From assembly GCA_016188245.1 (NCBI GenBank), contig JACPIE010000028.1:5704-69703 (forward strand): a stretch of 64,000 nt of DNA, in the 5' to 3' direction. This DNA comes from Candidatus Woesearchaeota archaeon (GTDB lineage: Archaea > Nanobdellota > Nanobdellia > Woesearchaeales > GW2011-AR4). Position numbers and translations under genes: made by a program. Numbering within the stretch: position 1 is the first letter of the stretch; each line of letters starts with the position of its first letter. Below, in pieces: positions 53,606 to 57,643 of the stretch. The notes under the pieces are model-generated. The model worked only from the letters and a program-made list of their open reading frames with translations. It was not told the DNA's origin and did no database searches.

Positions 53606-56600
53606 ATGACAGAGGAAACAGTGCAAAAATCAGGCACAAGAATAGTGCCAAGAGTCATCCAGGAAGAGATGAAGCAGAGCTACCTTGATTATTCAATGTC
53701 TGTTATTGTAGGGAGGGCACTGCCTGACGTGAGGGACGGATTAAAGCCCGTCCACAGAAGAGTGCTTTTTACGATGTGGGATATTGGATTGACTCATGAC
53801 AAGCAATTCAAAAAATCCGCCAATGTTGTCGGAAACTGCATGGCGCGTTTTCATCCGCATGGCGATTCGGCAATTTATGATACGCTTGTCCGCTTAGCCC
53901 AGGATTTTTCTATGAGGTATCCTTTGATTGACGGGCAGGGAAATTTTGGTTGTTTTACAGCTGATACAAAAGTCAAGCTGACTGACGGAAGAGATATAAC
54001 TTTTACAGAATTAATAGAAGAGCATAAACAGGGAAAAAGGAATTTTACATTTACCATCGACGAAAAAGGATTTGTTAAAATAGCAGAGATAAAAAACCCA
54101 AGACTAACTAAAAAGGATCAGAAATTAATGAAAGTTGTCCTTGATAATGGGGAGGAAATTAAATGCACTTTGAATCATAAATTTATGTTGAGGAACGGCG
54201 CATATAAAGAAGCTCAGGATCTAAAGCACGGTGATTCCTTAATGCCGCTTAACTTAAGATTTTCTACCAAAGAAGATGCTATAAAACCAGAGCTTGTTGG
54301 TTATCAAATGATTCATCAACCAAATGTAGATGAATGGACTGGTGTCCATGTTCTTGCTGATGAATGGAATTTAGAGCATGGAGTATATGCAAGAAGTTCA
54401 GGAAAAATAAGGCATCACATGGATTTTAACAAATTGAACAACAGCCCAGACAATTTAGTCAGAATGCAATGGAAAGACCATTGGAAATTACATGCAGAAC
54501 ACGCTTCACATCTTCATAATAATCCAGAATATCGTAAAAAGATATCTGAAGGAAGGAAAAAATATTGGTCTGCAAAAGAGAACAGGGAAAAAGCAGCCAA
54601 GATACTTTCTGACGGAAATAAGCAAAACTGGAAGGATGCAAATTACAGGAATTTAATGATAAAAATGTTAAGTGAAATTAATATTGAACACTACAAAAAA
54701 CATCCTGAACTAAGAAAAGTCATTAGTAACAGATTAAAAAATTTATGGAAAAATGAAGAATATCAAAGGTTAATGAGTACATTTAAGTCGAAAGAAACGA
54801 AGGAGAGATGGAAAAATAAAGACCCGTCTTTAAGAAAATTTACATCTGAAGAATCCAAAAAGATATGGTCTAATCCTAGGCATAGAGAATTTGTTTCTAG
54901 CCTAATGAAAGAAATTTGGCAGAATGAGGGATATAGAATTAGGATGGGCAAAGAGTCAAAGGAAAGATGGGAAGATGCCACATATCGCTCGAAATTTAAT
55001 CAAAATCATTTTCAAAATCATTTTAGTCAAATGGCAAAAAAATTGTGGACAGATCCAAATATACATAAACTACATAGTGAAAAAACATCACTTCAATGGA
55101 AAAATCCTGAATTCCGTGAAAAAATTATTAGCCAAGTAAAAAAAAGCAACGAACAACGACTGCAAAAAGATCCAGATTATATGAAAAAATTAGCAAAGAA
55201 AGCCAGTATGTCATTAAGAGAAAGATGGCAACATACACACTATAAAAAAAAAATCATAAAAAATAAGATTTTGGGTTATGTCAATTCCCTCAATAAAAAA
55301 TATGCAGAAATAACACCTGAAATTTACGAAAAAGAAAGGTACAATAACAGTATTCCAAGAATCAGCACTGCCCTAAAATATTTTGATAATTTCTTTGATA
55401 TGGTTAAACAAGCAGAGACCTATAACCATAAGGTTTTGTATGTTGAAATTCTTACAAAAAACGAAGATGTTTATGATTTGACTGTAGCAGAAACCCATAA
55501 TTTTGCCCTTAGTGCTGGAGTTTTTGTACATAATTCTGTTGACGGGGATCCGGCAGCCGCAATGCGCTACACAGAATGCCGCCTGACCAAGCTGTCAGAA
55601 GAGATGCTTGAAGATATCGATAAAAAAACAGTCAGGTTCATTTCAAACTTTGACAGCAGCACGACTGAGCCGATTGTGCTGCCTTCCAAGCTTCCCAATC
55701 TCCTTATCAACGGCAGCTCGGGAATTGCAGTCGGCATGGCGACAAACATGCCACCAAACAATGTCGGCGAAATTATCGATGCAGTTACTATGCAAATATC
55801 CAATCCTGAAATAGGAATTAACGAAATATTAAACATAGTCCGGGGGCCTGATTTTCCCACAGGCGCATTAATATGCGGAAAAAACGGCATCAGGGAAGCC
55901 TACTCAACCGGAAGAGGCAAGATTCTCGTAAGGGCAAAAACCACAATTGAACAGGACAAAAATAAATCAACAATCATCGTGAACGAAATACCATTCATGG
56001 TGAATAAGTCAGAGCTGCTTGAAGAGATAGCTGACATGGTAAGGGACAAGAAAGTAATAGGGATTTCTGATTTGAGGGATGAAAGCGACAGGCATGGAAT
56101 AAGGATTGTGATTGAGCTGAAAAAAGATGCTGATGCCAATGTGGTCCTTAACCAGCTGTTTGAGCATTCAAGGCTGCAGACAACTTTCGGAATCATAATG
56201 CTTGCCCTTGTGAGCAATGAGCCAAAAATCCTCAATATAAAACAGCTGATACATTTTTACATAGAGCACAGGAAGGATGTTGTCAGAAAAAGAACATTGT
56301 TTGACCTAAACAAGGCCCAAACCAGGGTGCATGTTTTGGAAGGGCTGATAATTGCGCTTAGTAACATCAGTAGTGTAATCAAGCTGATTAGGGAAAGCAA
56401 ATCAGTGGAAACAGCGAAAGATGCCCTGGCATCAAGCTTCAACCTTACAAATGAGCAGGCAATTGCAATCCTCGAAATGAGGCTGCAAAGGCTGACTTCC
56501 CTGGAGCAGGAAAAAATAAAGCAGGAGCATTCTGGATTACTGAAGCTCATCGAGGAGCTGGAATCTATATTGTCGAACCCGCAGAAAATATTAGGCATAA

Positions 56601-57643
56601 TCAAAAAAGAGCTTGGAGAGCTGAAGGAAAAGTACAACGATGCAAGAAGAACGCAGGTGATAGAGGCTGAAAATGAGGAGCTTGAGACAGAAGACCTGAT
56701 AAAAGACGAGGAGATGGCAATAACCATAACCAACTCCGGATATATAAAAAGGCTGCCACTGCAGACTTACAAGCTCCAGCACAGGGGAGGCAAAGGCGTC
56801 ATAGCTGCAGCAGCCAAGGAACAAGACATAGTCAAGGACATATTTGTTGCAAGCACACATTCTTACATTCTGGTTTTCACAGACAAAGGAAGGGTGTACT
56901 GGCTGAAAGTGTATAATGTTCCGGAGGCAAGCAGGCAGGCAAGAGGCAAGGCCATTGTGAATATGCTTGAAATGCAGGGCAATGAAAAAGTCACAGCTTT
57001 TGTTCCTGTAAGGAATTTTGACAGCGGAAAATACCTTATCATGTCAACAAAAAAAGGCACTGTAAAGAAAACAGAAATAATGGCTTACAGCAACCCAAGA
57101 AGGCACGGCATAGTTGCAATCACGCTTGAGCAGGGGGATGAGCTGATAAATGTTGAGCTTACTGACGGCAACCAGCAAATAATCCTGGCAACCAAAAACG
57201 GCCTGGCTGTAAGATTTGAGGAAAAAGATGTTAGGGCAACGGGCAGGAGCGCGCAAGGCGTAAGGGGAATATCTTTGAAGGACAATGATGGAGTCATAGG
57301 GATGGTTGTGGCATCTGATGAAACCACCCTTATGAGCGTTACTGAAAACGGGTACGGAAAAAGAACGCCAATTTCCGAGTACAGGCTGATAAATCGAGGA
57401 GGATCAGGAGTTATAAACATCCAATGCAGCGAAAGGAATGGCAAGGTTGTCTCAATCTGCCCTGTGGCAGAAAATGACGACATAATCTTCATAAGCAAGA
57501 ACGGCATTGTCATAAGGGTTTCAGCAGCCGACATTTCAGTCATTGGCAGGAACACCCAAGGCGTCAAAATAATGAAGCTTGATGAAAGCGACAAGGTTGT
57601 GAGCGCTGTAAAGGTGGCTAAAGAGGAAAATAACCACGAGTAA
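53606..57643 (+). CDS. gyrA: DNA gyrase subunit A, interrupted by an intein
   Basis: Extein motifs SMSVIVGRALPDVRDGLKPVHRRVL, HPHGD, PLIDGQGNFG | SVDGDPAAAMRYTE (catalytic Tyr), and a C-terminal beta-pinwheel with repeated G-rich blades. The extein sum is 817 aa. Confidence 0.9.
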   Translation: MTEETVQKSGTRIVPRVIQEEMKQSYLDYSMSVIVGRALPDVRDGLKPVHRRVLFTMWDIGLTHDKQFKKSANVVGNCMARFHPHGDSAIYDTLVRLAQDFSMRYPLIDGQGNFGCFTADTKVKLTDGRDITFTELIEEHKQGKRNFTFTIDEKGFVKIAEIKNPRLTKKDQKLMKVVLDNGEEIKCTLNHKFMLRNGAYKEAQDLKHGDSLMPLNLRFSTKEDAIKPELVGYQMIHQPNVDEWTGVHVLADEWNLEHGVYARSSGKIRHHMDFNKLNNSPDNLVRMQWKDHWKLHAEHASHLHNNPEYRKKISEGRKKYWSAKENREKAAKILSDGNKQNWKDANYRNLMIKMLSEINIEHYKKHPELRKVISNRLKNLWKNEEYQRLMSTFKSKETKERWKNKDPSLRKFTSEESKKIWSNPRHREFVSSLMKEIWQNEGYRIRMGKESKERWEDATYRSKFNQNHFQNHFSQMAKKLWTDPNIHKLHSEKTSLQWKNPEFREKIISQVKKSNEQRLQKDPDYMKKLAKKASMSLRERWQHTHYKKKIIKNKILGYVNSLNKKYAEITPEIYEKERYNNSIPRISTALKYFDNFFDMVKQAETYNHKVLYVEILTKNEDVYDLTVAETHNFALSAGVFVHNSVDGDPAAAMRYTECRLTKLSEEMLEDIDKKTVRFISNFDSSTTEPIVLPSKLPNLLINGSSGIAVGMATNMPPNNVGEIIDAVTMQISNPEIGINEILNIVRGPDFPTGALICGKNGIREAYSTGRGKILVRAKTTIEQDKNKSTIIVNEIPFMVNKSELLEEIADMVRDKKVIGISDLRDESDRHGIRIVIELKKDADANVVLNQLFEHSRLQTTFGIIMLALVSNEPKILNIKQLIHFYIEHRKDVVRKRTLFDLNKAQTRVHVLEGLIIALSNISSVIKLIRESKSVETAKDALASSFNLTNEQAIAILEMRLQRLTSLEQEKIKQEHSGLLKLIEELESILSNPQKILGIIKKELGELKEKYNDARRTQVIEAENEELETEDLIKDEEMAITITNSGYIKRLPLQTYKLQHRGGKGVIAAAAKEQDIVKDIFVASTHSYILVFTDKGRVYWLKVYNVPEASRQARGKAIVNMLEMQGNEKVTAFVPVRNFDSGKYLIMSTKKGTVKKTEIMAYSNPRRHGIVAITLEQGDELINVELTDGNQQIILATKNGLAVRFEEKDVRATGRSAQGVRGISLKDNDGVIGMVVASDETTLMSVTENGYGKRTPISEYRLINRGGSGVINIQCSERNGKVVSICPVAENDDIIFISKNGIVIRVSAADISVIGRNTQGVKIMKLDESDKVVSAVKVAKEENNHE
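53951..55534 (+). mobile_element. Intein (528 aa) with HNH-type endonuclease motif and NUMOD3-like repeat array
   Basis: Begins CFTADTKVKLTDG (block A, Cys1) and ends VYDLTVAETHNFALSAGVFVHN, followed by Ser+1. The interior has HHMDFNKLNNSPDNL..H..H and about 10 repeats of the type W-x-[ND]-P-E-[YF]-R / S-x-E-[ST]-K-x-x-W. Confidence 0.85.

What the first reader, a model, noticed from the sequence alone, without database searches (positions are those of the whole stretch)
53951..55534. GyrA intein at the GNFG/S site carrying an HNH motif and about ten NUMOD3-like W-x-N-P-E-Y-R repeats
The 528-aa insert has Cys1, a terminal His-Asn and Ser+1. It splits the universally conserved GQGNFG|S(V)DGD motif 12 residues upstream of the catalytic Tyr (AAMRYTE). 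This is not the site used by the well-known mycobacterial GyrA inteins, which sit directly after the Tyr. The insert has no LAGLIDADG domain. It contains an HNH-like HHMDFNKLNNSPDNL...H...H (about 54410-54505) and then a long array (about 54520-55260) of 18-25-aa repeats. These include WKNEEYQRLM, WSNPRHREFV, WQNEGYRIRM, WKNPEFREKI, SEESKKIW and SKETKERW, and they recall the NUMOD3 DNA-binding modules of free-standing homing endonucleases.
Basis: partly seen in the sequence, partly recalled or inferred. Interest (0 to 1): 0.6.

Follow-up and report, generated by a model that had tools for sequence, protein, structure and literature searches.

The report
HNH homing intein in archaeal gyrA
The gyrase A gene of this small uncultured archaeon carries a real self-splicing intein with a DNA-cutting HNH module and 13 short basic helices that probably grip DNA, but the same element sits at the same site in hundreds of public genomes, so it is ordinary.

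Summary
Window 53951-55534 encodes a 528-aa class-1 intein (Cys1, block B TLNH, His-Asn, Ser+1). It lies in frame in gyrA between GQGNFG and SVDGDPAAAMRY, 11 residues before the catalytic Tyr.

The intein has no LAGLIDADG domain. It has an HNH (beta-beta-alpha-metal) module, then 13 tandem 17-26-aa units with consensus QDPEYRKKMSEGAKKLW. That region has net charge +33.

The Pfam NUMOD3 model does not hit the units. A profile-profile comparison and natural hybrid units in free-standing GIY-YIG and HNH endonucleases still place them as a NUMOD3 variant.

The allele is common. All 120 listed matches are GyrA, and 116 were parsed with an intein at this site. At least 498 candidate stretches in the species-genome collection encode a relative. 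Hosts are DPANN archaea, CPR bacteria and Omnitrophota. There are three lineages (about 525, 450-500 and about 392 aa), and gyrB inteins are the sister group.

Within this genus, 15 of 24 other species have an empty site and 4 carry an intein there, three of them from other lineages.

Verdict: a real, probably mobile HNH homing intein and a new member of a known kind. The repeat array has no Pfam model and no solved structure. Interest is modest.

The parts
53606..57643 (+). gyrA ORF (1345-aa precursor; 818-aa GyrA after splicing)
53951..55534 (+). Intein, 528 aa: Cys1 ... His527-Asn528, followed by Ser+1 (TCT at 55535-55537)
53951..54262 (+). N-terminal Hint splicing region (residues 1-104; block A Cys1, block B T73-L-N-H76)
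   Evidence: TIGR01445 1.3e-10. AF2 pLDDT is 93-98 over residues 1-100. Foldseek matches mini-inteins. C1, T73 and H76 are invariant in 57 sequences.
54263..54517 (+). HNH (beta-beta-alpha-metal) nuclease module, residues 105-189. The core is residues 155-181 (nt 54413-54493): HH-x-D-F-N-K-x-N-N-x-P-x-N ... H-W-x2-H
   Evidence: HNH_3 E 8e-4, below its cut-off. phrog_7545 'HNH endonuclease' 9e-7. The model has strands 153-156 and 169-172 followed by helix 174-189. BFVD Foldseek matches phage HNH and NUMOD4-type homing endonucleases with probability about 1. H155, H156, N163, N164, N168 and H181 are invariant.
54518..55282 (+). Array of 13 W-x-(D/N)-P-E-Y-R helical units (residues 190-444), net charge +33, pI 10.1. 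Unit starts: 54518, 54569, 54632, 54695, 54749, 54812, 54869, 54920, 54971, 55049, 55100, 55163, 55229
   Evidence: The model shows about 14 helices.
55000..55024 (+). 12-nt tandem duplication (TCAAAATCATTT x2.1) that adds QNHF inside unit 9. It explains 528 aa against the family's usual 524.
55283..55417 (+). Conserved small helical segment (residues 445-489, TPEIYE.ER.NN..P...AL.YF) between the array and the C-terminal splicing region; function unknown
55418..55534 (+). C-terminal Hint region (blocks F and G; ...DVYDLTV..THNFALSAGVFVHN)
   Evidence: TIGR01443 8.4e-6; PDB intein matches
55568..55570 (+). Codon of the GyrA catalytic Tyr (AAMRY), C-extein residue +12

Best explanation
This is a class-1 Hint-fold intein carrying an HNH homing endonuclease, inserted in frame in gyrA. 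After translation the intein excises itself using Cys1, block B Thr-x-x-His, the terminal His-Asn and Ser+1, and leaves a normal 818-aa GyrA. At the DNA level its inner module is expected to recognise and cut the uninterrupted GGN-CAR-GGN-AAY-TTY-GGN|TCN-GTN-GAY-GGN-GAY site of intein-free gyrA alleles, so that repair copies the intein in (homing). The catalytic part is a small beta-beta-alpha-metal (HNH_3/I-HmuI-like) domain. The 13 basic W-x-D-P-E-Y-R helices that follow it are a variant of the NUMOD3 helix, the minor-groove-binding helix of I-TevI (that structural role is my own knowledge). They most likely lie along the DNA and supply a long, degeneracy-tolerant target contact. Shown here: the anatomy, the conservation, the empty sites in sister species, the patchy distribution, and the link between the repeats and nucleases and NUMOD3. 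Inferred: splicing activity, cleavage activity and DNA binding by the array.
For: Intein hallmarks score above curated cut-offs, and the catalytic residues are invariant in 57 homologues. In 9 same-genus species the empty site is exactly the joined flanks of the window. Of the 24 other same-genus species, 15 are uninterrupted and 4 (G003, G005, G020, G023) hold an intein at this site. The three I placed on the tree belong to other lineages than the window's: two to the short clade and one to the intermediate group. The tree needs at least 8 Archaea/Bacteria switches, against a shuffled mean of 26. Intein GC is 0.32, against 0.445-0.455 in the exteins. HNH support: phrog_7545 9e-7, a predicted beta-beta-alpha element and BFVD matches to phage HNH homing endonucleases. 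His-Me finger group 22 of Jablonska 2017 (PMC5714182) lists the HNH_3 nucleases of GyrB inteins. The intein is 522-528 aa in most of the 116 parsed 90%-identity clusters, at 43-70% identity. Individual units also keep their own conserved residues across homologues. Both point to purifying selection. The array is strongly basic. Among 130 other proteins that share the repeat, 27 have GIY-YIG, 12 DUF559, 11 REase_MTES_1575, 11 HNH or HNH_3, and 7 a true NUMOD3. A free-standing phage HNH homing endonuclease between two topoisomerase II genes carries the same repeats. The NUMOD3 link rests.
Against: No activity was tested. Pfam HNH_3 (15-19.4 bits) is below its 24.8-bit cut-off. Pfam NUMOD3 gives no hit on the intein even at E<=10. 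The AF2 models have high local confidence but low pTM (0.56 and 0.38), so the arrangement of the helices is unknown. No solved structure resembles the insert. Thirteen helices would cover more DNA than typical homing sites need. The 12-nt duplication in unit 9 could mean relaxed constraint in this particular copy.
Confidence: 0.8

Rival explanations
1. The intein still splices, but its endonuclease is dead or decaying. On this reading the repeat array is a leftover or a mere spacer, and this copy is inherited vertically and no longer homes.
For: The same site in sister species holds shortened forms of 263 aa and about 220 aa with the nuclease region largely gone, so decay does occur. This copy has a private 12-nt duplication. 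HNH_3 is below its cut-off.
Against: All HNH motif residues that are invariant in 57 homologues are intact here. The length matches the conserved family size of about 524 aa plus the 4-aa duplication. The low GC and the closest relative lying outside the genus (L030, 61-62% identity) fit a fairly recent arrival.
Confidence: 0.12
2. The array has a host-related role rather than, or besides, a homing role. For example, it could tie splicing of GyrA to DNA binding as a conditional-splicing switch, or hold the precursor on DNA.
For: The intein sits beside the DNA-gate active site of an essential DNA enzyme. The array is very basic. Novikova 2016 (PMC4760082) argues that intein clustering in replisome proteins suggests functional importance.
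Against: The same repeat travels with unrelated nucleases in phage-like proteins. Most close relatives do well with an empty site. Nothing in the data points to regulation.
Confidence: 0.05
3. The insert is an assembly or frame artefact, or a non-intein insertion domain of GyrA.
For: None beyond the fact that the genome is a metagenome-type assembly of 41 contigs.
Against: The frame is open across both junctions, the intein signatures are canonical, and there are hundreds of independent assemblies with the same junctions.
Confidence: 0.01

Closest known systems
HNH-type GyrB inteins (His-Me finger group 22 of Jablonska et al. 2017, PMC5714182). From my own memory, not verified here: the Synechocystis PCC 6803 Ssp GyrB intein.
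   Same: They are homologous end to end: Hint blocks, the HH-x-DFNKLNN-P-N HNH module, W-type repeats and the ...THNFAL.AG.FVHN|S ending. Identity to gyrB inteins of the same order is 34-46% over the best aligned segments. They are the sister group in the tree (99% local support).
   Different: The host gene and site differ: gyrB at EGDSAGG|SAKQGR against gyrA at GQGNFG|SVDGD. The gyrB forms are 429-432 aa and have fewer repeat units.
Mycobacterial GyrA inteins (Mxe and Mle GyrA; site directly after the catalytic Tyr)
   Same: The host protein is the same and the fold is a class-1 Hint fold. The two sites are only 12 residues apart, and both can be occupied in one protein (P0011, P0107).
   Different: The insertion site differs (RY|TE against NFG|S), the +1 residue is Thr rather than Ser, and the inner module is LAGLIDADG or none rather than HNH plus repeats. 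That the mycobacterial inteins use this site is established knowledge, not retested here.
NUMOD3 (Pfam PF07460), which includes the I-TevI segment NHKHSDITKSKISEKMKGKK. From my own knowledge this is its minor-groove-binding helix, as also seen in I-HmuI and I-BmoI.
   Same: The unit is a short basic helix with the core E-(T/Y)-(K/R)-x-K-(I/M)-S-x3-K, occurs in tandem, and is attached to GIY-YIG and HNH nucleases. Hybrid units exist in natural proteins.
   Different: The N-cap is D/N-P rather than H-S/T. The unit ends in an invariant Trp instead of K-G-K plus a loop, so units follow each other without a linker. Arrays are much longer: 13 units here and more than 20 in some proteins. Pfam's model does not detect them.
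Free-standing Mob-like HNH homing endonuclease of Aeromonas phage phiA8-29 (orf_058, ARK07878.1; phrog_655)
   Same: It is an HNH nuclease followed by the same W-x-D-P-E-Y-R units, and it lies between the two phage topoisomerase II subunit genes, relatives of gyrB and gyrA.
   Different: It is not inside an intein. Its HNH is of a different sub-type (Pfam HNH, not HNH_3) and it has fewer units.

Membership tests
Intein (class 1, Hint fold) | Nucleophile at residue 1, block B T-x-x-H, C-terminal His-Asn, nucleophile at +1 | tested here: met
   Cys1, T73-L-N-H76, H527-N528 and Ser+1 are present and invariant in 57 homologues.
Intein (class 1, Hint fold) | Profile matches above curated cut-offs | tested here: met
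   PF14890 88.1 bits against 35.8. TIGR01445 42.2 against 24.5. TIGR01443 25.9 against 15.6.
Intein (class 1, Hint fold) | In-frame insertion in a conserved host motif, with intein-free alleles in relatives | tested here: met
   15 of 24 same-genus species have uninterrupted gyrA. The empty-site DNA of 9 of them is collinear with the window's joined flanks.
Intein (class 1, Hint fold) | Protein splicing activity | not testable with these tools
   Inferred from intact catalytic residues and from gyrA being the only copy found at E<=1e-10.
HNH / His-Me finger nuclease (HNH_3, I-HmuI-like) | Beta-beta-alpha-metal fold with a catalytic His at the end of strand 1, Asn in the loop, and His or Asn on the helix | tested here: met
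   The model has strands 153-156 and 169-172 and helix 174-189. H156, N164, N168 and H181 are invariant. BFVD matches to HNH homing endonucleases have rmsd 2.4-4.5 A over about 70 columns.
HNH / His-Me finger nuclease (HNH_3, I-HmuI-like) | Pfam HNH_3 score at or above the gathering cut-off | tested here: not met
   15.0-19.4 bits against 24.8. phrog_7545 'HNH endonuclease' gives 9e-7.
HNH / His-Me finger nuclease (HNH_3, I-HmuI-like) | Metal-dependent DNA cleavage or nicking | not testable with these tools
   -
NUMOD3 (PF07460) | Match to the Pfam profile (cut-off 20.4 bits) | tested here: not met
   No hit at E<=10 on the intein or its pieces or in the whole genome at this place. The positive control worked: 13 matches in T4, including I-TevI.
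NUMOD3 (PF07460) | Core helix motif E-T-K-x-K-I-S-x3-K in tandem units of about 17 aa | tested here: met
   The unit consensus is QDPEYRKKMSEGAKKLW. hhalign aligns PEYRxxMSxxxK with xETKxKISxxxK at score 12.9, above 120 of 120 permutations. Pfam NUMOD3 (3.1e-12) spans a hybrid unit in P0239.
NUMOD3 (PF07460) | Attachment to homing-endonuclease catalytic domains | tested here: met
   GIY-YIG, HNH, HNH_3, DUF559/Vsr-like, NUMOD1 and I-HmuI_NUMOD-like domains occur in proteins that share the repeat.
NUMOD3 (PF07460) | DNA (minor-groove) binding | not testable with these tools
   The only indirect support is the net charge of +33.
Classical (mycobacterial-type) GyrA intein allele | Insertion directly after the catalytic Tyr (RY|TE) | tested here: not met
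   The junction here is NFG|S, 11 residues before the Tyr. The classical site is intact here. It is occupied in G004, G029 and G034 and in P0011 and P0107.
GyrB HNH intein allele | Insertion in gyrB at GDSAGG|S | tested here: not met
   The host here is gyrA. The homologous inteins of G004, G008, G023, G025, G031 and G037 are in gyrB.

The most novel reading that the evidence does not exclude
The W-x-D-P-E-Y-R array could be a modular DNA-reading device, with each helix contacting a fixed small number of base pairs through its variable positions (4, 7, 8, 11-13, 15, 16). Changing the number and identity of units would then be how this intein family retargeted between gyrB and gyrA. It would also explain how GIY-YIG, HNH, Vsr-like nucleases and Mom-like modification enzymes come to share one address module. 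If so, it would be a new designable DNA-binding scaffold.
Probability: 0.08. Interest if true: 0.7.

Novelty: new member of a known kind. Interest (0 to 1): 0.3.

Why it matters
This copy adds little on its own, because the same element is in hundreds of public genomes. Three things are useful.

First, it documents a gyrA intein site different from the textbook one. I could not find that site described in the papers I could search. One genus holds three intein lineages at the site alongside many empty sites, which makes it a clean natural system for studying the homing cycle.

Second, the tree shows repeated Archaea/Bacteria transfer among ultra-small organisms.

Third, the basic Trp-marked helix repeat is a widespread nuclease-associated module with no Pfam model and no solved structure. 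It is bridged here to NUMOD3. A structure with DNA would show how long-target homing endonucleases read degenerate coding sequence.

Tried and rejected
- Pfam NUMOD3 on the intein, on three sub-pieces and on the whole genome gave no hit. I therefore do not file the repeats as NUMOD3 members, only as a variant.
- Sequence and profile searches of the PDB found only Hint domains. They found no HNH and no repeat structure.
- Foldseek of the whole model against the PDB found only mini-inteins. Foldseek of the insert alone (residues 105-478) found nothing better than E=5.
- The Pfam GerD and NCBIfam spore_GerD hits on repeat proteins and the PDB 4o8w hit at E=0.011 I treat as cross-matches of a helical repeat, not as homology to a spore protein. 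This was not examined further.
- A tblastn search of the phage collection found only 5 records.
- Literature searches found no description of this allele or of the repeat. The supplements of Novikova 2016 are not held, and Dalgaard 1997 is not held.
- I could not fetch the Synechocystis gyrB intein, so that link rests on memory.
- I did not attempt dN/dS, because the available pairs are about 60% identical at the protein level and synonymous sites would be saturated.

Full report
**1. What is there**

The ORF at 53606-57643(+) encodes a 1345-aa GyrA (Pfam DNA_topoisoIV 1.9e-151 and six DNA_gyraseA_C blades). Residues 116-643 (nt 53951-55534, 528 aa) are an insert. It begins with Cys, ends with His-Asn and is followed by Ser. 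It sits between GQGNFG and SVDGDPAAAMRYTE. Removing it leaves an 818-aa GyrA.

The catalytic Tyr is C-extein residue +12.

The insert matches Intein_splicing (88 bits, cut-off 35.8) and the TIGR N- and C-terminal intein models. No LAGLIDADG family is hit. An AlphaFold2 model built on 57 homologues has mean pLDDT 87. Its Hint part matches solved mini-inteins.

Intein GC is 0.32, against about 0.45 in both exteins.

**2. The nuclease**

Residues 105-189 hold the motif RHH-x-DFNKLNN-x-P-x-N ... H-W-x2-H.
- Pfam HNH_3 is only sub-threshold (15-19.4 bits against 24.8).
- phrog_7545 'HNH endonuclease' gives 9e-7.
- The model shows two strands (153-156 and 169-172) followed by helix 174-189, the beta-beta-alpha-metal layout.
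- Foldseek against viral models matches many phage HNH and NUMOD4-type homing endonucleases over about 70 columns at rmsd 2.4-4.5 A.
- H155, H156, N163, N164, P166, N168 and H181 are invariant in 57 homologues.
- Jablonska et al. 2017 (PMC5714182) list an HNH_3-related group 22 made of GyrB and dCTP-deaminase inteins.

**3. The repeats**

Residues 190-444 divide into 13 units of 17-26 aa that align to the consensus QDPEYRKKMSEGAKKLW. Each unit is one helix in the model.

The repeats are not chance. An HMM built from the query's units finds 2-10 units in every one of the other 115 related inteins, against 4 single hits in 116 shuffles. After iteration it finds 727 units against none.

There is no DNA-level repeat except a 12-nt duplication at 55000-55024. 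It adds QNHF to unit 9 and explains 528 aa against the family's 524.

The array has net charge +33 and pI 10.1. Individual units keep their own conserved residues across homologues, so the array is old and constrained.

**4. Are the repeats NUMOD3?**

By formal membership, no. Pfam NUMOD3 gives nothing on the intein at E<=10 or in the genome at this place. The same search finds 13 matches in phage T4, including I-TevI.

By relationship, yes, probably.
- A profile of 602 units aligns to ten T4 and phiA8-29 NUMOD3 instances in the register PEYRxxMSxxxK ~ xETKxKISxxxK. The score is 12.9, above all 120 column permutations (maximum 8.2).
- P0239 has the architecture GIY-YIG + W-units + NUMOD3 + HTH. 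In it, Pfam NUMOD3 (3.1e-12) covers EHREKISNLNKGEGNPMYGKHHTEEAKAKIR. The first half of that stretch belongs to a unit that starts WKDPEHREKIS, and the unit after it ends ...KKSWEDP. The two motif types therefore replace each other in register. P0172 (HNH_3 + W-units + NUMOD3) behaves likewise.

A search of 1.84 billion representative proteins with the array alone gave 480 proteins at E<=1e-3. Of 130 scanned with Pfam:

| Domain | Proteins |
|---|---|
| GIY-YIG | 27 |
| DUF559 | 12 |
| REase_MTES_1575 | 11 |
| NUMOD3 | 7 |
| HNH_3 | 6 |
| HNH | 5 |
| I-HmuI_NUMOD-like | 4 |
| NUMOD1 | 3 |

A free-standing HNH homing endonuclease of Aeromonas phage phiA8-29 lies between the two topoisomerase II genes and has the same units.

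No solved structure resembles the array. The model of the insert alone has pLDDT 88.7 but pTM 0.38. That describes a chain of confident helices without a confident global packing. It fits a module that orders on DNA, but it proves nothing.

**5. How common, and how it moves**

All 120 listed hits of the protein search are GyrA. In 116 of them I could parse an intein at G(Q/E)GNxG|C...HN|S, and most of these inteins are 522-528 aa, at 43-70% identity. The few that carry names are Aenigmarchaeota, Nanoarchaeota, Micrarchaeota, Parcubacteria, Nealsonbacteria, Wildermuthbacteria and Omnitrophota.

A scan of one genome per species found at least 498 candidate stretches that encode a relative. Of the best 80, the 73 that could be parsed are all in gyrA at this site: 24 of about 525 aa, 42 of about 392 aa and 7 in between.

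A FastTree tree shows a long clade (99), a short clade (98) and an intermediate group (96), with gyrB inteins as sister (99). It needs at least 8 Archaea/Bacteria label changes, against a shuffled mean of 26. Two caveats apply: FastTree gives only local support values, and taxonomic labels of metagenome-assembled genomes can be wrong.

In the window's own genus, among the 24 other species:
- 15 have an uninterrupted site.
- 4 have an intein at the site. G003 and G020 are in the short clade (392 aa and a 263-aa remnant). G005 is in the intermediate group (479 aa). G023 is a mini form of about 220 aa.
- At least one (G004) uses the classical site after the Tyr. Two same-order genomes (G029, G034) also use that site, and one (G032) uses a third site.

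The empty-site DNA of nine sister species is collinear with the window's joined flanks.

This is the pattern expected of repeated invasion, decay and loss. Within the genus it argues against simple vertical descent.

**6. Mechanism**

Shown: intact splicing and HNH residues, the conserved array, the empty target sites, and the patchy, cross-domain distribution.

Inferred: the precursor splices, the HNH module nicks or cuts the empty gyrA site, and the 13 NUMOD3-like helices supply an extended DNA contact that tolerates wobble variation in a conserved coding target. Nothing here tests activity.

**7. Comparison with what is known, and novelty**

HNH inteins, NUMOD modules and GyrA and GyrB inteins are all known kinds. 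Villain et al. [quoted passage not shown] Novikova 2016 lists GyrA inteins only for four bacterial phyla. I found no paper describing this site or the W-type repeat, but I could not consult InBase.

Earlier reports of this scan on other genomes reached the same reading. They are not independent evidence. I retested their main points here.

It is a new member of a known kind with a poorly described DNA-binding repeat. Interest is modest.

Noticed in passing
window 55000-55024: A perfect 12-nt tandem duplication (TCAAAATCATTT x2.1) inside repeat unit 9 adds QNHF. It is private to this copy: the family consensus has a gap there.
   Followed up: yes
G000 contigs C1, C11, C20, C25 (outside the window): The 1.29-Mb genome is intein-rich. 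Intein_splicing hits occur in at least five ORFs. These include a ribonucleotide reductase with two inteins, one of them LAGLIDADG (C20, L002). They also include a 4390-aa open frame on C25 with at least two intein hits. One hit on C11 contains a TAG stop.
   Followed up: partly
P0127, P0128, P0152 (from; other metagenomes): These 700-750-aa proteins join four parts: an N-terminal zinc ribbon, more than 20 W-x-D-P-E-Y-R units, a REase_MTES_1575/Vsr-like nuclease and a Mom-like (GNAT-type DNA-modification) domain. The combination of an address module with a nuclease and a modification domain is unusual, and I did not see it described in the papers I searched.
   Followed up: partly
L015 (Aeromonas phage phiA8-29, KY914485.1 51278-52237): A free-standing HNH homing endonuclease with the same repeat units lies between the phage topoisomerase II large and medium subunit genes. 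This hints that the repeat family targets type II topoisomerase genes in phages too.
   Followed up: partly
L016 (Bacillus phage SP-15, SP15_022): A phage protein annotated as hypothetical carries an intein of the same HNH type (Intein_splicing 9.5e-17). It was the best viral structural match for the insert.
   Followed up: partly
window 55535-55537 and loci L003-L005, L110-L119: The +1 Ser codon is TCT in all four intein-bearing alleles examined. The nine empty alleles use AGC (4) or TCN (5). This may reflect co-conversion of flanking bases during homing, or chance.
   Followed up: no
G004, G029, G034, G032; P0056: gyrA in this order uses at least three intein sites: GNFG|S, the classical RY|TE, and a third near VVGE|C...HN|CLGKYHPHGD. 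Some GyrA proteins hold two inteins.
   Followed up: partly
Pfam PF17898 / NCBIfam NF040801 (GerD): The GerD spore-protein models cross-hit W-repeat proteins: 83 of 130 at E<=0.01, and some above the Pfam cut-off, such as P0127 at 45.7 bits. This could cause mis-annotation of homing-endonuclease repeat arrays as GerD.
   Followed up: no
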